Shown: positions 16,424-22,770, counted from the first letter of the stretch. The stretch is DNA of 64,000 nt from an uncultured bacterium (GCA_964399265.1 CAYNQF010000001.1:1195-65194); one strand, 5' to 3'. Made by a program: numbers and translations. Notes: generated by a model from the letters alone, not told the origin.

Positions 16424-16663
16424 ATGAAGAGCGAGCAGGCAGCAGCCAGTCTGGACATGACGGGTTACTTCTGCCCCGAACCGGTCGTCCGTACGAACGA
16501 GGAGATTTCGAACGTCGGAGTCGGCGAGATCCTCGAAGTTACGGCGGACGACCCTTCATCCAAGCCGGACATCGAGAGTTGGGCCAGGAGAACGGGCCAC
16601 GAGCTGGTTTCGGTCGAGAACGATGACGGCGTGTTCAGGTTCCTGATCCGTCGGACGAAATAG
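16424..16663 (+). CDS. tusA: TusA-family sulfurtransferase (CPxP motif)
   Basis: YFCPEPVV motif. 79 aa with a two-layer alpha/beta pattern typical of TusA/SirA. Confidence 0.8.
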   Translation: MKSEQAAASLDMTGYFCPEPVVRTNEEISNVGVGEILEVTADDPSSKPDIESWARRTGHELVSVENDDGVFRFLIRRTK

Positions 16664-16843
16664 AGATATCGGTATACGCGTTTGCTATGGTGGGGGCGCA
16701 ATGTCCGAGATCGACCTGCGGCAGTTCGGGGGACACCGCTAAGTCGTGACCGGTGCGCCCCACTGTAGCGCTATGGGGCCGCGTACGGCGCCGCGACGAC
16801 AGACGAGAGCGCGCCCGCGCGGGAGCAGATTGGAGGAATGACA

Positions 16844-17212
16844 ATGGCCGAACGCAAGCGTATGCTCTACGTCCAGGCGTCGGGTATAGACACGCCCACG
16901 AGGCTCTACTCGCCGGTCGTGCTGGCCACGGTCGCGAAGTCGATGGACATGGACGCGACGGTCTACTTCCTGGGCCAGGGCATCACGGTCGTCAAGGCGG
17001 GGGAGGCCGACAAGATCAAGATCGGCGACTTTCCTGTCCTGTCGGATGTGATTGCCCGGGCCATGAAGGCGGGCGTGGAGTTCAAGGTGTGCGACCAGAG
17101 TTCCAGGCTGATGGGTCTCTCGAGCGGAGACTACATCGACGGCGTCGAGATAGTCGGTGCGGCCACGCTGAACGACCTGACGCTCGACGCTGACGGCGTG
17201 CTCTGCTTCTAG
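16844..17212 (+). CDS. DsrE/DsrF-like sulfur-relay family protein
   Basis: ~120 aa with the DsrE-like pattern (VYFLGQGITVV ... conserved Cys in FKVCDQS). ATG 16844 sits 6 nt after GGAGGA; ATG 16838 is too close to the RBS. Confidence 0.65.
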   Translation: MAERKRMLYVQASGIDTPTRLYSPVVLATVAKSMDMDATVYFLGQGITVVKAGEADKIKIGDFPVLSDVIARAMKAGVEFKVCDQSSRLMGLSSGDYIDGVEIVGAATLNDLTLDADGVLCF

Positions 17213-17247
17213 CTCGTGCATCAGCATTCAAGACGGAGGTCGTCCCC

Positions 17248-18444
17248 GTGTTCAAGGGTTTCCTCGACTATCAGTCCGGCTCGCCCGTCGACCCGCGGGT
17301 CGTCGAGGCGATGCTCCCGTACATGACCGAGCGCCATGGCAATCCCGCCATGCTTCACTCAGTCGGTGACATGAGTCGCCAGGCCGTGGAGGCCGCGCGC
17401 GCTCAGGTCGCCTCTTTCATATCGGCAGACCCCACGGAGATCTGCTTCACGTCAGGCGCCACTGAGGCCAACAACATGGCCCTGAAGGGCGCCGCCCTCA
17501 GGCTGCGCAAGAAGGGCAATCACATCGTCTCGAGCGTCATCGAACATCGCTCGATCATCACTCCTCTCAAGTACCTCCAGCGCGAGGGATTCGAGGTGAC
17601 GTCCGTGCCGGTCGACCGCGACGCGTTCGTCGACCCGGCGGCCGTCAGGGACGCGATTCGCGACGACACGATCCTGGTCTCGATCGGCATGGCCAACAAC
17701 GAGGTCGGAACGATTCAGGCCGCGGGCGAGATCGCGTCGATAGCACGCGAAAAGGGCGTGTTGTTCCACACCGACGCCGTTGCCGCAGAGGCGTGGATCC
17801 CGATCGACGTCAAGACGCTCCCGTTCGACCTCGTCACGCTTTCCTCCAACGATGTGTACGGACCCAAGGGCATGGGCGCACTCTATATAAGGAAGGGCAC
17901 GCGCATCGAGGCCATGATCCACGGCGGGGGGCAGGAGAGCGGGCTTCGCTCGGGCAGCGAGAACGTGCCGGGCATCGTCGGTTTCGGGAAGGCGGCCGAG
18001 CTGGCCGCGGCCGAGATGGAGTCGGACGTCGATAGGGTCAGGCCGATGCGGGACCGGTTGATCGACGAACTCCTGAAGATAGAGGACACGACGCTCAACG
18101 GGCCGCGCGAACGCAGACTTCCGGGGAACGCAAACATCCGGTTCGCCTACATTGAGGGAGAAGGATTGGTCCTCTTGCTCGACATGGAGGGCATCCAGGT
18201 AGCGAGCGGATCCGCGTGCTCGACGAAGACGCTGGAGCCCTCCTACGTCCAGATCGCGATGGGCATCAGGCACGAGCAGGCGCATGGCTCGCTCGAGTTC
18301 TCGCTCGGCCGCTGGACGACCGACGAGGACATAGACATGGTCCTGCAGGCGCTGCCGTCCATCGTGGACCGCTTGAGAAAGATGTCGGCGTTTAGGCCGG
18401 GCATGGAGTACGATAAGGACGAGTTCCGGAAGCACGAGCACTAG
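17248..18444 (+). CDS. IscS/NifS-like class-V aminotransferase-fold protein lacking the PLP-binding lysine (SSND in place of SGHK); catalytic-loop Cys retained (SGSACS)
   Basis: Collinear with IscS along its whole length. At the Schiff-base position the sequence reads DLVTLSSNDVYGPKGMGALY versus the canonical SFSGHKIYGPKG. GTG start with a GGAGG RBS. Confidence 0.8.
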   Translation: MFKGFLDYQSGSPVDPRVVEAMLPYMTERHGNPAMLHSVGDMSRQAVEAARAQVASFISADPTEICFTSGATEANNMALKGAALRLRKKGNHIVSSVIEHRSIITPLKYLQREGFEVTSVPVDRDAFVDPAAVRDAIRDDTILVSIGMANNEVGTIQAAGEIASIAREKGVLFHTDAVAAEAWIPIDVKTLPFDLVTLSSNDVYGPKGMGALYIRKGTRIEAMIHGGGQESGLRSGSENVPGIVGFGKAAELAAAEMESDVDRVRPMRDRLIDELLKIEDTTLNGPRERRLPGNANIRFAYIEGEGLVLLLDMEGIQVASGSACSTKTLEPSYVQIAMGIRHEQAHGSLEFSLGRWTTDEDIDMVLQALPSIVDRLRKMSAFRPGMEYDKDEFRKHEH

Positions 18445-18504
18445 GGGAAGCTCCAGGGCGTCTGCAGCACAGCGTCCCCCGGGTTGTGGCCCAGGAGGTA
18501 GATC

Positions 18505-18897
18505 ATGAACGAGGTTACCCCGAGCGTTCCGCCGCAGTCGGGCGGAGATGTTCAGTTCGTGCGTGAAGTGAGCGCGCCGCTCTATGCGGCCAGGGGCTGG
18601 ATGAAGCTCGTCGGCGTGCTCATGATCATCTATGGCGCGCTGATGGCCCTGACCATCGTCGGGATCATCGTGTGCTGGCTGCCGATCTGGATCGGCGTCC
18701 TGCTGCTGCGTGCCGCCAGCTCGGCAGAGATGGCACAGGTCTCCGGAGACAAGTTCCAGCTCGTCGAGTCGATGACGAAGCTCAAGACGTACTTCACCAT
18801 CTACGGCATTCTCGCCCTCGTCGGGCTGATCGCGGCCGCCATCGCTCTCATGGTGGGCGGGCTGGGCGCCATTACCGAGCTCATCCTGAACCGCTGA
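18505..18897 (+). CDS. small polytopic membrane protein (DUF-type, unknown function)
   Basis: GGAGG RBS then ATG; 3-4 predicted TM helices. A strong terminator follows the gene. Confidence 0.55.
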   Translation: MNEVTPSVPPQSGGDVQFVREVSAPLYAARGWMKLVGVLMIIYGALMALTIVGIIVCWLPIWIGVLLLRAASSAEMAQVSGDKFQLVESMTKLKTYFTIYGILALVGLIAAAIALMVGGLGAITELILNR

Positions 18898-18926
18898 CCG
18901 TACATGTGAGACGAGTTCGTCTTTGG

Positions 18927-18959
18927 GGCCGCCGGCTCGCTTCCGGCGGCCCATTCTTC
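18927..18959 (+). terminator. rho-independent terminator: 10-bp stem GGGCCGCCGG / CCGGCGGCCC, 7-nt loop, T-rich tail
   Basis: Perfect inverted repeat at 18927-18936 / 18943-18952, followed by ATTCTTCTTGCATTT. Confidence 0.7.
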
Positions 18960-18988
18960 TTGCATTTGGCTTGGTCATTTGGTAAATT
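18960..18988 (+). promoter_or_regulatory. sigma70-like promoter TTGCAT-17-TAAATT for the ArsR operon, with palindrome TTGGCCAA (18987-18994) overlapping -10 as candidate operator
   Basis: Hexamers and spacing read from the sequence; located 25-55 nt upstream of the arsR-family start. Confidence 0.45.
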
Positions 18989-19018
18989 GGCCAAGTATAC
19001 CCAGAACGGAGGTTGCGG

Positions 19019-19378
19019 ATGAACGAGGGGATAAGGCAGCGATACGAGGCCAGGGCCGGCGTCATGAAGGCGCTTGCGCACCCCAGCCGGCTCTACATCG
19101 TGGACGAGCTGTCGAGGGGCGAGAGGTGCGTCCACGAGCTTACCGACGCCATCGGCTCGGACATGTCGACCGTGTCAAAGCACCTGGGTGTCCTCAGGAC
19201 GGCCGGGATCGTGCGAGACGAGAAGCGCGGTTCGGAGGTCTACTACTCGCTCCGAATGGCATGCGTGCTCGACTTCTTCGGGTGTCTGGAGGCGGTCATG
19301 AACGGTGGCGATGCGGTGTCGTGCGCGTCTGCGGCGCGCGAGCCCGCGTCGACGCCACGGGCCGGGAGGACGACGTGA
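19019..19378 (+). CDS. ArsR/SmtB-family metalloregulatory transcriptional repressor
   Basis: wHTH signature HPSRLYIVDELSRGERCVHEL...VSKHLGVL. GGAGG RBS 9 nt upstream of ATG 19019. Stop overlaps the next start (TGATG). Confidence 0.85.
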   Translation: MNEGIRQRYEARAGVMKALAHPSRLYIVDELSRGERCVHELTDAIGSDMSTVSKHLGVLRTAGIVRDEKRGSEVYYSLRMACVLDFFGCLEAVMNGGDAVSCASAAREPASTPRAGRTT

Positions 19379-19860
19379 TGGCATTGACTTCGAGGCCCAC
19401 GCGGGGCGCGGCGACCGCGCTTGGTTTCGTCCTTGTCGCACTCGTCGCTCTGGCGCTGCTCGTGGGCTGCGGTGACACGGAGAAGGCGGCCGAGACCTCG
19501 GCCAGCGCCGGGTCCGGCGAGGCGCCCGGGCCGGCGAACGCCGGAAAGGCGTCCGAGTCGAATGCCGAGACGGCCGCGCTTCCGACGCTCCTCGACCTCG
19601 GGTCCGACAAGTGCGTTCCGTGCAAGGCAATGATGCCGATCATCGCGGAGATGCACGACACCTTCGCGGGGAAGCTGTCCGTGGAGTTCATCGACGTATG
19701 GAAGGACAGGGAGGCCGGGCAGAAGTACGGGGTGAAGGTGATCCCGACGCAAATCTTCCTCGACGCCGACGGGAACGAACTCTTCCGTCACCAGGGCTTC
19801 TTCTCGAGAGACGACATTCTGGCAAAGTGGCGGGAGCTGGGCTACGACTTCGGGCGGTAG
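19378..19860 (+). CDS. thioredoxin-fold lipoprotein (CVPC active site)
   Basis: Lipobox LLVGCGD. CVPCK CxxC motif with the cis-Pro motif VIPTQIF. GGGAGGA RBS. Confidence 0.7.
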   Translation: MALTSRPTRGAATALGFVLVALVALALLVGCGDTEKAAETSASAGSGEAPGPANAGKASESNAETAALPTLLDLGSDKCVPCKAMMPIIAEMHDTFAGKLSVEFIDVWKDREAGQKYGVKVIPTQIFLDADGNELFRHQGFFSRDDILAKWRELGYDFGR

Positions 19861-19884
19861 TCCGGCGGACGCCGGAGGTGAGAA

Positions 19885-20583
19885 GTGGTTGAGCTCTTCT
19901 CGACACTGAGCAGAGCCGTTGAGGGCGCTCCGGCAGTGGCGCTCGCGGCGTCGCTCGCGTGGGGCGTCCTGAGCGTCGTCCTGTCGCCCTGTCATCTCGC
20001 GAGCATCCCTCTCATCGTCGGGTTCATAGACGGGCAGGGGCGCATCTCGACGCGGAGGGCGTTTGGGATATCGCTTCTGTTCTCCGTCGGGATCCTGGCC
20101 ACCATCGCCGCGATCGGTGTGGCCACCGCCGTGGCCGGCAGAATGATCGGAGACCTAGGCCGCTGGGCCAACTACGGTGTAGCGATCATCTTCTTCGCCG
20201 TCGGACTGCACCTGCTCGGCCTTATCCCGATGCCGTGGTCGGGCCCCGGGCGTGTCGGCATGAGGCGGAGGGGTGCGCTCGCCGCCTTCGTGCTGGGGCT
20301 CGTGTTCGGCGTCGCCCTGGGGCCGTGCACGTTCGCATATATGGCTCCGATGCTGGCCGTTACCCTGCGGGTTGCTGCGACGAGTCTCGCCTACGGAGCG
20401 CTCTTGCTACTGGCGTACGGCGTCGGGCACTGCTCTGTCATCGTCCTGGCGGGCACGTTCACGGAGGTCGTGCAGAGATACCTGAACTGGACGGAGCGGT
20501 CCAGAGGCGCCGTCGTGCTCAGGAAGGTGTGCGGAGCGCTCGTGATGGTGGGCGGGGTATACCTTCTCATTACGGCGCACTAG
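19885..20583 (+). CDS. ccdA: CcdA/DsbD-like transmembrane thiol:disulfide electron-transfer protein
   Basis: Six TM segments with conserved Cys in TM1 (VVLSPCHLASIP). GTG start with a GGAGGTG RBS. Confidence 0.7.
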   Translation: MVELFSTLSRAVEGAPAVALAASLAWGVLSVVLSPCHLASIPLIVGFIDGQGRISTRRAFGISLLFSVGILATIAAIGVATAVAGRMIGDLGRWANYGVAIIFFAVGLHLLGLIPMPWSGPGRVGMRRRGALAAFVLGLVFGVALGPCTFAYMAPMLAVTLRVAATSLAYGALLLLAYGVGHCSVIVLAGTFTEVVQRYLNWTERSRGAVVLRKVCGALVMVGGVYLLITAH

Positions 20584-20593
20584 GGAGAGTCGC

Positions 20594-21892
20594 TTGAACT
20601 GGAAGATCGAGTGGAAGCCGCTCCTCATCATGCTCGCCGTCTTCCTGGCGGCGTTCAACCTGCCGGTCGGAACGGCGAGGTTCGACAATGCGCTCGTCGA
20701 GGCGTTCGCCCTCGTGAAGTGGTACGCGCGCGAGCACGTGGTCCTGTGTCTGCTGCCCGCCTTCCTCATAGCCGGGGCCATCGCCGCCTTCGTGCGCAAG
20801 GAATCGGTGATGAAGTACCTCGGCGCACGAGCGCCGAAGCCGCTCGCGTACGGTGTCGCCTCCGTATCCGGGTCGATCCTCGCTGTCTGTTCCTGCACTG
20901 TGCTGCCGCTCTTCGCGGGCATATACAGGATGGGGGCCGGCCTGGGACCGGCCAGCGCGTTCCTCTACTCGGGTCCCGCGATCAACGTGCTCGCCATCAT
21001 ACTGACGGCCCGCGTGCTCGGGCCCGAGCTGGGCCTCGCCAGGGCCCTGGGTGCGATCGGGTTCAGCGTGGTCATAGGACTTCTCATGCACGTCATCTTC
21101 CGTAAGGAGGAACTCGAGAAGGCCGACGCGCAGATGGCGATGCCGGAGCCCGAGCCCACGAGGCCGCTCTGGCAGAACGGCGTCTACTTCGCGATCATGG
21201 TGGCGATCCTCGTCTTCGCCAACTGGGGCAAGCCGTCGGCTCCGGACGGGCTCTGGGCCGCCGTCTATTCGGCCAAATGGGCTATTACCTCGCTTCTCGG
21301 CGTCGCGTTCGGCGTCGTCCTCATCCTGTGGTTCCGTTTGTCCGTGATGCGCGCGATGCTCGCGGCTCTGCCGCCCGTCGCGCTCGCGCTGCTGCTCCCG
21401 GGACAGCCGATCCTCGCCTTCGGCGCGGCCGTGGTCGGGCTCGGTGTCATCACCAGCACCGCCGGCGGAGAGATGGGCGAGTGGTTCGAATCGAGCTGGG
21501 GGTTCGCGAAGCAGATACTGCCGCTGCTCCTGATCGGCGTCATCGTGGCCGGACTGCTCCTGGGGAGGCCCGGACACCAGGGGCTGATTCCCTCCGAGTG
21601 GGTGGCGCGCTCGGTGGGCGGGAACTCGCTCGGCGCGAACCTCTTTGCATCGGTCGCGGGCGCGTTCATGTACTTCGCGACGCTCACTGAGGTGCCCATC
21701 CTGCAGGGGCTCATCGGCAGTGGCATGGGCAAGGGGCCGGCGCTGGCGTTACTGCTGGCGGGTCCGGCGCTGTCGCTTCCTAACATGCTCGTCATCAGAA
21801 GCATCATGGGAACTAAGAAGACGCTCGTGTTCGTAGGGTTGGTCGTCGCCATGGCCACGGTGACGGGGATGCTGTACGGCAGGTTCTTCTGA
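20594..21892 (+). CDS. permease of the UPF0718/DUF318 (YraQ-like) family
   Basis: Polytopic membrane protein with the paired-repeat architecture typical of DUF318. TTG start at 20594 after GGGAGAG. Commonly paired with the small thioredoxin-like protein that follows. Confidence 0.65.
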   Translation: MNWKIEWKPLLIMLAVFLAAFNLPVGTARFDNALVEAFALVKWYAREHVVLCLLPAFLIAGAIAAFVRKESVMKYLGARAPKPLAYGVASVSGSILAVCSCTVLPLFAGIYRMGAGLGPASAFLYSGPAINVLAIILTARVLGPELGLARALGAIGFSVVIGLLMHVIFRKEELEKADAQMAMPEPEPTRPLWQNGVYFAIMVAILVFANWGKPSAPDGLWAAVYSAKWAITSLLGVAFGVVLILWFRLSVMRAMLAALPPVALALLLPGQPILAFGAAVVGLGVITSTAGGEMGEWFESSWGFAKQILPLLLIGVIVAGLLLGRPGHQGLIPSEWVARSVGGNSLGANLFASVAGAFMYFATLTEVPILQGLIGSGMGKGPALALLLAGPALSLPNMLVIRSIMGTKKTLVFVGLVVAMATVTGMLYGRFF

Positions 21893-21903
21893 TGGAGGAA
21901 CAC

Positions 21904-22134
21904 ATGAAGGTTCAGATACTGGGTACCGGGTGCCCGAAGTGCAAGCAGCTCGAGGCGAACGCCCGCGCGGCGGTCGAAGAACTCGGCCTCGACTACGAGC
22001 TTGAGAAGGTCTCCGACATCAACGAGATCATGAAGTTCGGGATCATGATGACGCCCGGACTCGCCGTGGACGGTGTCGTGAAGTCGGCGGGGAAGCTCCT
22101 GTCGGTCGAGGATATCAAGAAGTTGCTCAAGTGA
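21904..22134 (+). CDS. small thioredoxin-like 'redox-active disulfide protein 2' family protein (CPKC)
   Basis: MKVQILGTGCPKCKQLE... is a textbook match to this ~77-aa family. GGAGGA RBS before ATG 21904. Confidence 0.8.
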   Translation: MKVQILGTGCPKCKQLEANARAAVEELGLDYELEKVSDINEIMKFGIMMTPGLAVDGVVKSAGKLLSVEDIKKLLK

Positions 22135-22153
22135 GGTTCGGGAGCGTGGAGGG

Positions 22154-22702
22154 ATGATGAGGTCGTTCCGTTACCTTGTGCTGACCGCCTCTCTGCTCAC
22201 CTGCTGTGCCGCGGTCGGTTTGGCCGACGAAGGAGTGTCCGCGCCCGCATCAGACACCGAGGCGGCGACGCATTCGCTGCCGGACTCGACCGGTGCGTCG
22301 CCGACCTCCGGCGCCGAGGCCGACTCCACGGCCCTCGACCGCGTCGTCGTTACCTATTTTCACAAAGAGTTCAGGTGCGAGATGTGCCTCGCGTTCGAGG
22401 CCAACTCGGAAGAGGCTCTTCGGACGGCGTTCCCGGGCGAGTTGGCGGACGGCCGTCTTGTCTGGCGCGTCCTGAACCTGGACGACAAGCAGAACACACA
22501 CTACGAGGACGACTACGGCCTGACGGAGCTCTCGCTCGTCGTGGCGGGGGAGCGCGACGGCGTCGTCGTGGAGTGGCGAACCCTCCCGGACATCTGGGGG
22601 CTCGTGGACGACAAGCAGGCGCTCATCGATTACGTTACGTACGAGGTGGGGAAGACGCTCGATAAGGTCAAGTACCGCGAATGGGCGGGAACCCGGAAGT
22701 AG
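22154..22702 (+). CDS. secreted hypothetical protein with CxxC motif (FRCEMC)
   Basis: Signal peptide. GGAGGG RBS. Last gene of the ArsR-family operon, immediately followed by a terminator. Confidence 0.5.
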   Translation: MMRSFRYLVLTASLLTCCAAVGLADEGVSAPASDTEAATHSLPDSTGASPTSGAEADSTALDRVVVTYFHKEFRCEMCLAFEANSEEALRTAFPGELADGRLVWRVLNLDDKQNTHYEDDYGLTELSLVVAGERDGVVVEWRTLPDIWGLVDDKQALIDYVTYEVGKTLDKVKYREWAGTRK

Positions 22703-22709
22703 CGGGAAA

Positions 22710-22740
22710 AGGGGCCTGGAACCGGCCCCTTTCTTTTTCT
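22710..22740 (+). terminator. rho-independent terminator AGGGGCC-TGGAACC-GGCCCCT followed by TTCTTTTTCT
   Basis: 7-bp stem, 7-nt loop and U-rich tail read from the sequence, 8 nt after the stop at 22702. Confidence 0.7.
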
Positions 22741-22741
22741 G

Positions 22742-22770
22742 TTGACGCCTGCACATACGTGCAGTAGCAT
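22742..22770 (+). promoter_or_regulatory. sigma70-like promoter TTGACG-17-TAGCAT upstream of lexA
   Basis: Near-consensus hexamers with exactly 17-bp spacing. Begins 2 nt after the upstream terminator. Confidence 0.5.
22750..22763 (+). promoter_or_regulatory. candidate LexA operator TGCAC-ATAC-GTGCA (Fibrobacter-type TGCNC-N4-GTGCA) inside the promoter spacer
   Basis: Exact match to the reported Fibrobacter succinogenes LexA box consensus. It lies between the -35 and -10 elements of the promoter preceding lexA. Confidence 0.5.

What the first reader, a model, noticed from the sequence alone, without database searches (positions are those of the whole stretch)
18927..22740. Cleanly bounded ArsR-family operon made entirely of thiol-disulfide and transport functions
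A terminator (18927-18952), a TTGCAT-17-TAAATT promoter with a TTGGCCAA palindrome over the -10, six genes, then a textbook terminator (22710-22740). The genes are an ArsR/SmtB regulator (with Cys near the DNA-binding helix), a CVPC thioredoxin-fold lipoprotein, a CcdA/DsbD membrane reductant conduit, a DUF318/YraQ-type permease, a CPKC 'redox-active disulfide protein 2' and a secreted CxxC protein. The composition looks like a metal(loid)- or oxidant-responsive envelope thiol-redox/export module. Neither its effector nor its substrate is obvious.
Basis: partly seen in the sequence, partly recalled or inferred. Interest (0 to 1): 0.5.

Follow-up and report, generated by a model that had tools for sequence, protein, structure and literature searches.

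The report
Arsenic-resistance operon core with thiol relay
This six-gene unit is the front part of a known kind of arsenic-resistance operon (regulator, exporter and a thiol-based electron relay across the membrane). It is ordinary in kind, though how the relay part works is still not understood.

Summary
Six co-directional, tightly packed genes (19019-22702) lie between two hairpin terminators, behind a conserved promoter.

Genes 5 and 6 pass the NCBIfam cut-offs for ArsE (TIGR00412) and ArsF (NF040494). Gene 4 is an ArsP_1 permease that keeps the invariant CSC motif. Gene 1 is an ArsR with conserved C37, C82 and C89.

Relatives at the same chromosomal site (probably Ca. Eisenbacteria) extend the same operon with an ArsC-like reductase and/or ACR3. 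This copy stops after arsF. Of 34 metagenomic ArsF loci of at least 5 kb, 25 carry Acr3, ArsC-like or ArsM-like genes.

Three details may be new:
- ArsF always has an N-terminal hydrophobic segment. It sits next to a two-cysteine DsbD-superfamily protein, either "ArsG" (57 loci) or CcdA plus an exported thioredoxin (6 loci, as here). This suggests a relay ArsE → CcdA/ArsG → (Trx) → ArsF.
- The real operator is a TTTGG-N8-CCAA dyad around the -10, conserved across distant ArsR orthologues.
- C37/C82/C89 is an unusual cysteine layout.

Verdict: a new member of a known kind, of modest interest.

The parts
18926..18962 (+). Intrinsic terminator of the upstream DUF5362 gene. It forms the left boundary of the unit.
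   Evidence: A 10-bp all-G-C stem with a 7-nt loop, then ATTCTTCTTG. Folding gives -24 kcal/mol, z = -4.75, with 0 of 200 shuffles as stable. The hairpin is conserved in L002, L004 and L005, with variation in the loop.
18960..18988 (+). Promoter: -35 TTGCAT (18960-18965), 17-nt spacer, extended -10 TG (18980-18981), -10 TAAATT (18983-18988).
   Evidence: Read from the sequence. It falls below the scanner's threshold. The block is conserved in the three sister loci aligned (L002, L004, L005) and across further orthologous loci, while the stretch between the -10 and the ribosome-binding site diverges. More distant loci have TTGACA-17-TATATT at the same place.
18978..18995 (.). Predicted ArsR operator: dyad TTTGG-N8-CCAA(G) centred on the -10. 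An extra CTTGG half-site lies at 18970-18974.
   Evidence: It occurs once in 64 kb against 0.03 expected; 3 of 100 shuffles have a match. The same dyad lies just upstream of arsR in 14 other loci, whose ArsR proteins are 54-87% identical to this one. In L049 it is part of a 40-bp perfect palindrome.
19019..19378 (+). arsR: ArsR/SmtB-family repressor, 119 aa, with cysteines C37, C82, C89 and C102.
   Evidence: PF01022 47.9 bits; NF033788 85 bits against a cut-off of 55. In 49 homologues C82 and C89 are invariant and C37 is at least 90% conserved. In the AF2 model (pLDDT 86), C37 sits at the start of alpha3, C82 at the N-cap of alpha5 and C89 inside alpha5. GGAGG lies 6 nt before the ATG.
19378..19860 (+). 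Exported thioredoxin, a probable lipoprotein (lipobox LVGC, Cys31) with active site CVPC.
   Evidence: PF00085 38.6 bits; PF13098 37.8 bits. Orthologues in ArsF loci of other lineages are 45-70% identical, and 6 of 6 have an N-terminal hydrophobic segment before C[VI]PC. The start overlaps the arsR stop.
19885..20583 (+). CcdA-type membrane thiol-disulfide conduit, 232 aa, with Cys36 in SPC and Cys148 in GPC.
   Evidence: PF02683 45.8 bits against a cut-off of 27.1. The ArsG model NF040495 does not hit it at E <= 0.01. It is 27% identical to Prevotella ArsG, and the first cysteine motif aligns. It is 67-82% identical to the CcdA of ArsF loci whose GC content ranges from 45% to 66%.
20594..21892 (+). 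ArsP_1-family permease, the long (~430 aa) type, with a CSC motif at residues 99-101.
   Evidence: PF03773 252 bits. It scores far below the SO_0444 and SaoE equivalog cut-offs: 109.5 against 300 and 107.8 against 325. C99-S100-C101 is invariant in an alignment with six homologues. It is 67-80% identical to permeases of distant ArsF loci. The ~400-aa arsP type is described in PMC2963123.
21904..22134 (+). arsE-like cytoplasmic Thioredoxin_3 protein, 76 aa, CPKC.
   Evidence: PF13192 97.8 bits; TIGR00412 'MTH895/ArsE family' 109.3 bits against a cut-off of 62. It has no N-terminal hydrophobic segment; only 1 of 57 homologues has one. It lies directly upstream of ArsF in most loci.
22157..22702 (+). 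arsF-like exported thioredoxin-fold protein, CEMC at residues 75-78 (numbered from the ORF start at 22154).
   Evidence: NF040494 88.7 bits against a cut-off of 60; no Pfam hit. The AF2 core has pLDDT above 90, with the CxxC at the N-terminus of helix 76-92. The top Foldseek hits are thioredoxins. 70 of 70 homologues have an N-terminal hydrophobic segment. The family holds 3,910 clusters at 50% identity.
22708..22742 (+). Intrinsic terminator. It forms the right boundary of the unit.
   Evidence: A 9-bp stem (6 G-C pairs) with a 7-nt loop, then CTTTTTCTGT. Folding gives -19.7 kcal/mol, z = -2.05.

Best explanation
This is the core of an arsenic (inorganic and organo-arsenical) resistance operon: arsR-trx-ccdA-arsP-arsE-arsF. 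The window copy ends after arsF. Relatives carry an ArsC-like reductase and/or ACR3 after it.

Proposed mechanism:
1. ArsR binds the TTTGG-N8-CCAA dyad that straddles the -10 and represses the operon. Operator location is shown by conservation; binding is inferred.
2. A trivalent arsenical, As(III) or methyl/aryl-As(III), ligates the conserved thiols C37, C82 and C89 and releases the repressor (inferred).
3. The ArsP_1 permease, with its membrane CSC motif, expels the trivalent (organo)arsenical (inferred from the family).
4. The cytoplasmic thioredoxin-like ArsE feeds reducing equivalents to CcdA. CcdA reduces the exported CVPC thioredoxin lipoprotein and, through it or directly, the exported CxxC protein ArsF. 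Topology and gene linkage are shown; electron flow is inferred.
5. Reduced ArsF acts on arsenicals outside the cytoplasm. It may bind or sequester exported trivalent species and free envelope dithiols from As adducts, or it may reduce an arsenical. This step is speculative.
For: Family membership:
- ArsE 109 bits against 62, ArsF 88.7 against 60, ArsR 85 against 55, ArsP_1 252 bits, CcdA 45.8 against 27.1.

Same-site orthologues extend the operon:
- L091: ...trx3-arsF-LMWPc-SBF-lexA.
- L090 and L092: an LMWPc gene follows downstream.
- L004 and L003: an LMWPc gene follows.
- L002: ACR3 follows, 380 bits against a cut-off of 283.

Independent lineages:
- Holophagales: trx3-arsF, then arsR-arsM (362 bits against 263)-acr3 (466 bits)-arsP_1.
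- Prevotella plasmid: arsR-arsF-arsG-trx3-permease-arsC-ACR3.

Census of 80 metagenomic ArsF loci:
- 25 of 34 loci of at least 5 kb carry Acr3, ArsC-like or ArsM-like genes.
- Of the 67 loci with at least 400 bp downstream of arsF, 63 have ArsG or CcdA next to ArsF. The other 4 are short contigs of this lineage, which would be cut off before ccdA if gene order is as in the window.

Topology: ArsF 70/70 and the cluster thioredoxin 6/6 have an N-terminal hydrophobic segment; Trx3 has one in 1 of 57.

Fold: ArsF has a thioredoxin fold.

Regulator: ArsR cysteines are conserved, and the operator dyad is conserved upstream of arsR in 14 other loci.

Literature:
- The ArsR5-ArsP-ArsE-DGC operon is up-regulated by arsenic in P. 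mercurii ND132 (10.1101/2022.10.17.512643).
Against: - The 64-kb window has no arsC, acr3 or arsM, so this copy on its own shows no canonical arsenic gene.
- The LMWPc neighbours match arsenate reductase best but fall below the equivalog cut-off: 93-150 bits against 174.
- The effector of an ArsR/SmtB protein cannot be read from its sequence. This cysteine layout matches none of the three characterised As(III) sites I know of.
- PF03773 also contains Cu/Zn exporters.
- The only experimental work on ArsE/ArsF that I know of (Chen, Zhang, Rosen 2019; recalled from memory, not held in the library) assigns them nitro-group reduction and calls ArsG a permease. That is not the relay proposed here.
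- Nothing here shows electron transfer or co-transcription.
Confidence: 0.7

Rival explanations
1. The literal ArsEFG function. ArsE and ArsF together would reduce the nitro group of aromatic arsenicals (roxarsone, nitarsone), and a membrane protein would export the resulting amino-aryl arsenite. On this reading the operon is a nitroaromatic-arsenical detoxification system.
For: Genes 5 and 6 pass the NCBIfam models that NCBI names after this function. PGAP names the homologous Prevotella genes accordingly.
Against: - The ArsG equivalog NF040495 does not hit gene 3.
- ArsF has a flavin-less thioredoxin fold and a predicted exported location, whereas ArsE is cytoplasmic.
- The ArsF family is very large, 3,910 clusters at 50% identity. 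Every ArsF locus sampled here came from a metagenome or a MAG. Selection by synthetic feed additives seems unlikely there (my inference).
- The neighbouring genes are general arsenic genes: arsC, acr3 and arsM.
Confidence: 0.1
2. A soft-metal or antimony efflux and envelope-protection module. The ArsP_1 permease would export Cu, Zn, Cd, Hg or Sb rather than arsenic, and ArsR would sense that metal.
For: The best NCBIfam hits for the permease are the SO_0444 Cu/Zn efflux family and SaoE. ArsR/SmtB proteins include Zn, Cd and Pb sensors such as CmtR, which is a weak hit.
Against: The scores are far below the cut-offs: 109.5 against 300 and 107.8 against 325. Across lineages the linked genes are arsC-like, acr3 and arsM, not cop, czc or mer genes. 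The sensor residues are all cysteines plus one histidine; there is no His/Asp/Glu alpha5 site. Sb(III) as a co-substrate is not excluded.
Confidence: 0.08
3. General envelope thiol-redox housekeeping. CcdA and a ResA-like thioredoxin would serve cytochrome c maturation or oxidative-stress repair, under a redox-sensing or persulfide-sensing ArsR-family regulator. The system might be linked to the upstream TusA/DsrE/NifS sulfur-trafficking genes.
For: CcdA plus an exported CxxC thioredoxin is the canonical reductant branch of cytochrome c maturation (established knowledge). TusA, DsrE and a cysteine desulfurase lie just upstream in all relatives of this lineage. BigR is among the weak regulator hits.
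Against: - BigR scores 50 bits against a cut-off of 155, and its sensing cysteine does not align with C37.
- A terminator separates the upstream genes from the operon.
- This CcdA and thioredoxin are a dedicated subfamily that travels with ArsF, Trx3, acr3 and arsM in unrelated genomes of 45-66% GC, where the sulfur genes are absent.
- No ccsA, ccsB or resBC genes are in the unit.
Confidence: 0.07

Closest known systems
[quoted passage not shown]
   Same: The same three redox determinants occur together with an arsP of the ~400-aa type under arsR. In 7 of their 8 instances arsC is also present, as in this operon's orthologues.
   Different: That paper did not recognise the exported ArsF-type partner. 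It doubted transmembrane electron flow because ArsC is cytoplasmic. The window copy lacks arsC and acr3.
ArsEFG of Shewanella putrefaciens 200 (Chen, Zhang, Rosen 2019, PMID 31059239; content recalled from memory, paper not held)
   Same: Gene 5 is in the ArsE family and gene 6 is in the ArsF family, adjacent in the order E-F and under ArsR control.
   Different: ArsG (NF040495, DsbD_2) is replaced by a bona fide CcdA (PF02683) plus an exported thioredoxin. An ArsP_1 permease is added. The published activity, nitro-reduction of synthetic aromatic arsenicals, is unlikely to be the native role here.
ArsP methylarsenite efflux permease of Campylobacter jejuni (PF03773, TC 2.A.119)
   Same: The same Pfam family at 252 bits, with a conserved membrane CSC cysteine pair and a location in an ArsR-controlled unit. 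The efflux of MAs(III) and Rox(III) by ArsP is summarised in PMC6205960.
   Different: This is the long ~430-aa subtype, with an insertion of about 100 residues. No NCBIfam equivalog covers it, and its substrate is untested.
Reductant relays of the DsbD and CcdA-ResA type (cytoplasmic thioredoxin to a two-cysteine membrane protein to an exported thioredoxin-fold protein)
   Same: There is a cytoplasmic Trx-like protein (ArsE), a CcdA with the two Pro-flanked cysteines, and two exported CxxC thioredoxin-fold proteins.
   Different: The system is dedicated to an ars operon rather than to cytochrome c maturation or disulfide isomerisation. The terminal substrate is unknown, and electron transfer has not been shown.
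P. mercurii ND132 'operon C' (ArsR5-ArsP-ArsE-DGC; bioRxiv 10.1101/2022.10.17.512643)
   Same: It has the same ArsR-ArsP_1-Thioredoxin_3 sub-module, and it is transcriptionally induced by arsenic.
   Different: As described in the preprint, it has no CcdA, exported thioredoxin or ArsF, and it has a DGC-domain protein instead.
Characterised As(III)-sensing ArsR repressors: R773 ArsR (ELCVCDL in alpha3), AfArsR (C-terminal Cys95/96/102) and CgArsR (Cys15/16/55). All three are recalled from memory.
   Same: The winged-helix ArsR/SmtB fold is shared. C37 aligns with the first cysteine of the alpha3 CVC motif, and the Holophagales homologue has CVC there. All-thiol ligands are available.
   Different: The motif is CVH rather than CVC. 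The other conserved thiols form a Cx6C pair (C82, C89) at the start of alpha5. This layout matches none of the three known sites.

Membership tests
ArsR/SmtB metalloregulators (PF01022, NF033788) | Winged helix-turn-helix domain scoring above the curated cut-offs | tested here: met
   PF01022 47.9 bits against 22; NF033788 85 bits against 55. The AF2 model shows the alpha1-alpha5 plus beta-wing architecture.
ArsR/SmtB metalloregulators (PF01022, NF033788) | Conserved metal(loid)-ligand residues | tested here: met
   C82 and C89 are invariant and C37 is at least 90% conserved in 49 homologues; C102 is in the majority consensus.
ArsR/SmtB metalloregulators (PF01022, NF033788) | Dyad operator overlapping its own promoter | tested here: met
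   TTTGG-N8-CCAA straddles the -10. It occurs once in the window against 0.03 expected, and it recurs upstream of arsR in 14 other loci. Binding itself was not tested.
ArsR/SmtB metalloregulators (PF01022, NF033788) | De-repression by As(III) or organoarsenicals | not testable with these tools
   This needs an EMSA or a reporter assay.
ArsE (TIGR00412, MTH895/ArsE thioredoxin-like) | Model score above the cut-off, a CxxC motif and a small cytoplasmic protein | tested here: met
   109.3 bits against 62; CPKC; no hydrophobic N-terminus.
ArsF (NF040494) | Model score above the cut-off and an invariant RCxxC motif | tested here: met
   88.7 bits against 60. R74, C75 and C78 are invariant in alignments A1 and A4.
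ArsF (NF040494) | Nitro-group reduction of aromatic arsenicals together with ArsE | not testable with these tools
   This is a biochemical assay. The thioredoxin fold and the exported location make it doubtful as the native role.
ArsG (NF040495, DsbD_2-type 'aminoaryl-arsenical efflux permease') | Model score of at least 200 bits | tested here: not met
   Gene 3 gets no NF040495 hit at E <= 0.01. True ArsG proteins score about 292 bits. Gene 3 is only 27% identical to Prevotella ArsG.
CcdA / DsbD transmembrane domain (PF02683) | Pfam score above the cut-off and two Pro-flanked cysteines, expected in TM1 and TM4 | tested here: met
   45.8 bits against 27.1 over profile positions 4-214. The motifs are SPC36 and GPC148. 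The first motif aligns with that of ArsG. TM assignment follows the family; no topology prediction was run.
ArsP (PF03773, organoarsenical exporter) | Pfam membership and a conserved membrane cysteine pair | tested here: met
   252 bits. C99-S100-C101 is invariant in 7 aligned homologues. The requirement of these cysteines for transport is recalled from memory.
ArsP (PF03773, organoarsenical exporter) | Efflux of MAs(III) or Rox(III) | not testable with these tools
   This needs transport or resistance assays.
Canonical ars operon | Contains an arsenate reductase and/or an As(III) pump (ArsB or Acr3) | tested here: not met
   The 64-kb window has no arsC, acr3 or arsM hit. The feature is met in same-site orthologues L002, L004, L090, L091 and L092.
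SO_0444 Cu/Zn efflux and SaoE (NF033936, NF040736) | Equivalog score above the cut-off | tested here: not met
   109.5 bits against 300 and 107.8 bits against 325.
BigR/SqrR-type (per)sulfide-sensing ArsR proteins (NF040642) | Equivalog score above the cut-off and the alpha2/alpha5 cysteine pair | tested here: not met
   50.3 bits against 155. In the alignment to BigR (3pqj), BigR has Ser where C37 lies, and BigR's own cysteine aligns with a non-cysteine residue here.

The most novel reading that the evidence does not exclude
ArsE → (CcdA or 'ArsG') → (exported Trx) → ArsF may be a dedicated transmembrane reductant relay that handles arsenicals outside the cytoplasm. It could strip As(III) or MAs(III) from envelope dithiols, or it could be a so-far unidentified reductase for pentavalent organoarsenicals.

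On this reading the current annotations would describe side activities rather than the native mechanism. Those annotations are 'ArsG efflux permease' and 'ArsF nitroreductase subunit'.

Four observations support this and none contradicts it:
- ArsG and CcdA+Trx are mutually substitutable next to ArsF.
- ArsG has two cysteines conserved in 45/45 and 43/45 sequences, in PC/CP motifs.
- The whole ArsF family carries an N-terminal hydrophobic segment, consistent with export.
- Trx3 stays with ArsF even where ArsP_1 is not directly upstream.
Probability: 0.35. Interest if true: 0.6.

Novelty: new member of a known kind. Interest (0 to 1): 0.3.

Why it matters
As an annotation, this turns an apparent "unknown thiol-redox module" into the core of an arsenic-resistance operon in an uncultured lineage, probably Candidatus Eisenbacteria. 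It also shows that this particular genome copy stops after arsF, where relatives carry a reductase and/or an As(III) pump.

More broadly, ArsF is a large family (about 3,900 clusters at 50% identity). In every locus sampled it comes with a two-cysteine DsbD-superfamily membrane protein. That link is a testable argument that many ars operons contain an extracytoplasmic thiol-reducing branch whose substrate is unknown. The published names of ArsF and ArsG may therefore not describe their native roles.

The predicted operator (TTTGG-N8-CCAA) and the C37/C82/C89 thiol set give concrete handles for building or interpreting arsenic biosensors.

Tried and rejected
- The ArsEFG paper (PMID 31059239) and the ArsP paper (PMC4681449) could not be read. 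Their content is therefore cited from memory only. Searches for secondary descriptions found nothing useful.
- The genome-contig scan with the ArsF alignment returned only 3 loci, because the degenerate patterns were too narrow.
- The word-indexed protein search for ArsF returned only 10 hits. The exhaustive HMM search gave the real family size.
- The TTGGCCAA palindrome was rejected as the operator. It is not rare by chance and is not conserved in L004 or L005. It was replaced by the TTTGG-N8-CCAA dyad.
- A BigR/SqrR-type sensor, SO_0444/SaoE efflux and ArsG membership for gene 3 were each tested and rejected on score and alignment.
- A horizontally acquired island was considered. GC content is flat across the region and the cluster sits at the same chromosomal site in relatives, so there is no sign of recent insertion.
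- No Rfam family and no tRNA lies anywhere in the window.
- PDB entry 8qkf shares the RCVHEL motif, but no paper on it could be found.
- Distances between the ArsR cysteines could not be measured, because model coordinates are not returned.

Full report
**1. Observation**

The region holds six + strand ORFs:
- arsR 19019-19378
- an exported thioredoxin 19378-19860
- ccdA 19885-20583
- an ArsP_1 permease 20594-21892
- a Thioredoxin_3 protein 21904-22134
- a CxxC protein 22157-22702

The gaps between them are -1 to about 24 nt, and a GGAGG-type ribosome-binding site can be read before at least four of the starts.

Terminator-like hairpins flank the block. One is at 18926-18952 (-24 kcal/mol, z = -4.75). 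The other is at 22708-22732 (-19.7 kcal/mol, z = -2.05). None lies inside.

The promoter TTGCAT-17-TAAATT (18960-18988) is too weak for the consensus scanner. It carries an extended -10 TG and lies in a block conserved in orthologous loci, while the sequence just downstream diverges.

Two small corrections apply to gene starts: 21904 rather than 21892, and 22157 rather than 22154.

**2. Protein identities**

- HTH_5/ArsR: NF033788 85 bits against a cut-off of 55.
- Thioredoxin: CVPC, with lipobox LVGC.
- DsbD_TM/CcdA: 45.8 bits against 27.1.
- ArsP_1: 252 bits.
- Thioredoxin_3.

Two hits change the picture. Gene 5 passes TIGR00412, the "MTH895/ArsE family" (109 bits against 62). Gene 6 has no Pfam domain but passes NF040494, the "nitrophenyl compound nitroreductase subunit ArsF family" (88.7 bits against 60).

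The ArsF-like protein models as a thioredoxin fold. The core pLDDT is above 90, and CEMC sits at the N-terminus of helix 76-92. Its best structural matches are thioredoxins.

The permease keeps an invariant CSC motif. It belongs to the ~400-aa arsP type described by Castillo & Saier. It scores far below the SO_0444 and SaoE cut-offs.

**3. Same-site relatives**

Homologues of the window's proteins lie on MAG contigs with the same flanks: HAD, M50 peptidase, TusA, DsrE, NifS-like and DUF5362 on one side, and LexA and a nitroreductase on the other. They have the same six genes in the same order. Close ArsR homologues are labelled Candidatus Eisenbacteria.

In these relatives the operon does not stop at arsF:
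- L091 continues with LMWPc, SBF and then lexA.
- L090 and L092 have an LMWPc gene downstream. In L090, SBF follows as well, after DUF5362.
- L004 and L003 continue with LMWPc.
- L002 continues with a protein that passes the ACR3 equivalog (380 bits against 283).

The LMWPc proteins match thioredoxin-coupled arsenate reductase best, but below the cut-off.

The window has no arsC, acr3 or arsM anywhere in its 64 kb. This copy is therefore the first six genes of what is an eight-gene operon (arsR-trx-ccdA-arsP-arsE-arsF-arsC-acr3) in L091. That it was shortened, rather than the relatives extended, is my inference. GC content is flat across the region.

**4. Independent lineages**

- A Holophagales MAG has trx3-arsF next to arsR-arsM (362 bits against 263)-acr3 (466 bits)-arsP_1.
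- A Myxococcales MAG has GcvH-DGC-DGC-OsmC-trx3-arsF-arsG.
- A Prevotella nigrescens plasmid is annotated arsR-arsF-arsG-thioredoxin-permease-arsC-ACR3.

A metagenome scan with an ArsF alignment gave 80 loci. A tblastn census of those loci showed:
- Trx3 is present in 48 of the 55 loci with enough upstream sequence.
- Of the 34 loci of at least 5 kb, 25 carry Acr3, ArsC-like or ArsM-like genes.
- Of the 67 loci with at least 400 bp downstream of arsF, 57 have ArsG next to it, 5 have CcdA (with the exported thioredoxin wherever enough sequence is held), 1 has both, and 4 have neither.
- Those 4 are short contigs of the window's own lineage. They would be cut off before ccdA if gene order is as in the window.

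ArsF is a big family: 3,910 clusters at 50% identity reach E <= 0.001.

**5. What "ArsG" is, and what the CcdA variant implies**

ArsG (NF040495) is a DsbD_2/DsbD_TM-superfamily protein. It has two cysteines conserved in 45/45 and 43/45 sequences, in SPCP and FCP motifs.

Gene 3 of the window is not an ArsG: NF040495 does not hit it, and it is 27% identical. It is a genuine CcdA. The CcdA of other ArsF loci is 67-82% identical to it, although those loci range from 45% to 66% GC. The gene order differs between them: R-Trx-CcdA-P-E-F here, M-Acr3-E-F-Trx-CcdA in L077, and a divergent arrangement in L049.

Topology also sorts cleanly. All 70 ArsF sequences and all 6 cluster thioredoxins have an N-terminal hydrophobic segment before the CxxC. 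Only 1 of 57 Trx3 proteins does.

Trx3 stays with ArsF-ArsG/CcdA in 17 of the 30 loci where no ArsP_1 is directly upstream.

The simplest reading is a DsbD-like relay. Cytoplasmic ArsE would donate to a two-cysteine membrane conduit (ArsG, or CcdA). The conduit would reduce an exported thioredoxin-fold acceptor: ArsF directly, or ArsF via the CVPC lipoprotein. This is an inference from linkage and topology. No electron transfer has been shown.

**6. The regulator and its operator**

Correct numbering gives C37, C82, C89 and C102.
- C37 aligns with the first cysteine of the alpha3 CVC motif. The Holophagales homologue has CVC there, whereas this protein has CVH.
- In 49 homologues of 58-82% identity, C82 and C89 are invariant and C37 is at least 90% conserved.
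- In the AF2 model (pLDDT 86), C37 sits at the start of alpha3, C82 at the N-cap of alpha5 and C89 inside alpha5.

This differs from the three As(III) sites I know of, which I recall from memory: R773 alpha3 CVC, AfArsR C-terminal and CgArsR N-terminal. The BigR type is excluded.

Lining up the regions upstream of arsR from 19 loci shows a shared dyad. It reads ATTTGGyTAwAwTrsCCAAr, that is, TTTGG-N8-CCAA enclosing the -10 hexamer. In L049 it is part of a 40-bp perfect palindrome. The dyad occurs once in the window (18978-18994) against 0.03 expected. It lies just upstream of arsR in 14 other loci.

**7. Literature**

[quoted passage not shown] They found 8 instances, 7 of them with arsC. They also described the two arsP size classes. 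They doubted transmembrane electron flow because ArsC is cytoplasmic. They did not note an exported partner.
- A preprint on P. mercurii ND132 reports that its ArsR5-ArsP-ArsE(PF13192)-DGC operon is up-regulated by arsenic.
- ArsP exports MAs(III) and Rox(III), as reviewed in PMC6205960.
- The ArsEFG paper (Chen, Zhang, Rosen 2019) is not held. From memory, it assigns nitro-reduction of Rox(III)/Nit(III) to ArsE+ArsF and export of the amino product to ArsG. The NCBIfam names agree with that.

**8. Verdict**

The unit is an ArsR-controlled arsenic-resistance module of an already described type, so it is a new member of a known kind.

The most likely mechanism has three parts:
- A trivalent arsenical releases ArsR from a dyad over the -10.
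- ArsP_1 exports the arsenical.
- ArsE-CcdA-Trx-ArsF carries reducing power to the outer face of the membrane, to deal with arsenicals or As-thiol adducts there.

My confidence that this is an arsenic system is about 0.7-0.75. My confidence in the relay as drawn is about 0.5. The terminal reaction of ArsF is open.

The rivals each get 0.1 or less. They are literal nitroaromatic-arsenical reduction, soft-metal efflux, and generic or sulfur-linked thiol housekeeping.

Interest is modest. The value lies in the testable re-reading of ArsF and ArsG and in the predicted operator and sensor site.

Noticed in passing
window 22742-22770 (dyad at 22749-22764): The lexA promoter-like site TTGACG-17-TAGCAT encloses a perfect dyad, CTGCAC-N4-GTGCAG. 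The same dyad lies upstream of lexA in L004, L005, L012 and L091. It occurs once in the window against 0.22 expected. It is a candidate LexA/SOS box for this lineage.
   Followed up: partly
window 18505-18897; L090 12431-12820: A DUF5362 membrane protein sits directly upstream of arsR in the window and in L002, L004, L005 and L092. In L090 it lies inside the ars cluster, between the ArsC-like gene and acr3. In L016 it lies about 2 kb upstream of arsR. It may be functionally linked to the ars genes.
   Followed up: partly
window 16424-18444: TusA (16424-16663), DsrE (16838-17212) and a class-V aminotransferase/cysteine desulfurase-like gene (17248-18444) form a sulfur-trafficking trio. The trio is conserved immediately upstream of the ars cluster in all same-lineage relatives. 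A terminator separates it from the ars operon. No functional link was tested.
   Followed up: no
L008 4495-8034; L023, L028, L070: In other lineages the Trx3-ArsF-ArsG triad is preceded by a GcvH-like protein, two DGC-domain (PF08859) proteins and OsmC. These are further thiol or lipoyl-type proteins, and their role in ars clusters is unexplained.
   Followed up: no
L035 2573 onward: One ars-type exported thioredoxin (CIPC) appears fused to a C-terminal region of about 290 residues that is rich in cysteines (496 aa in all). It could be a real fusion or a mis-extended ORF. This was not examined.
   Followed up: no
window 17452-19065 (-), 20570-21577 (-) and others: Long antisense ORFs overlap the real genes, for example one of 537 aa and one of 335 aa. 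They have Arg/Gly/Pro-rich translations typical of the opposite strand of 65%-GC coding sequence. I judged them to be artefacts from composition only.
   Followed up: partly
L090 10739-11785: One relative carries a second CcdA (232 aa) and a 105-aa ORF between arsF and the ArsC-like gene. This looks like a duplication of the conduit within the operon.
   Followed up: no
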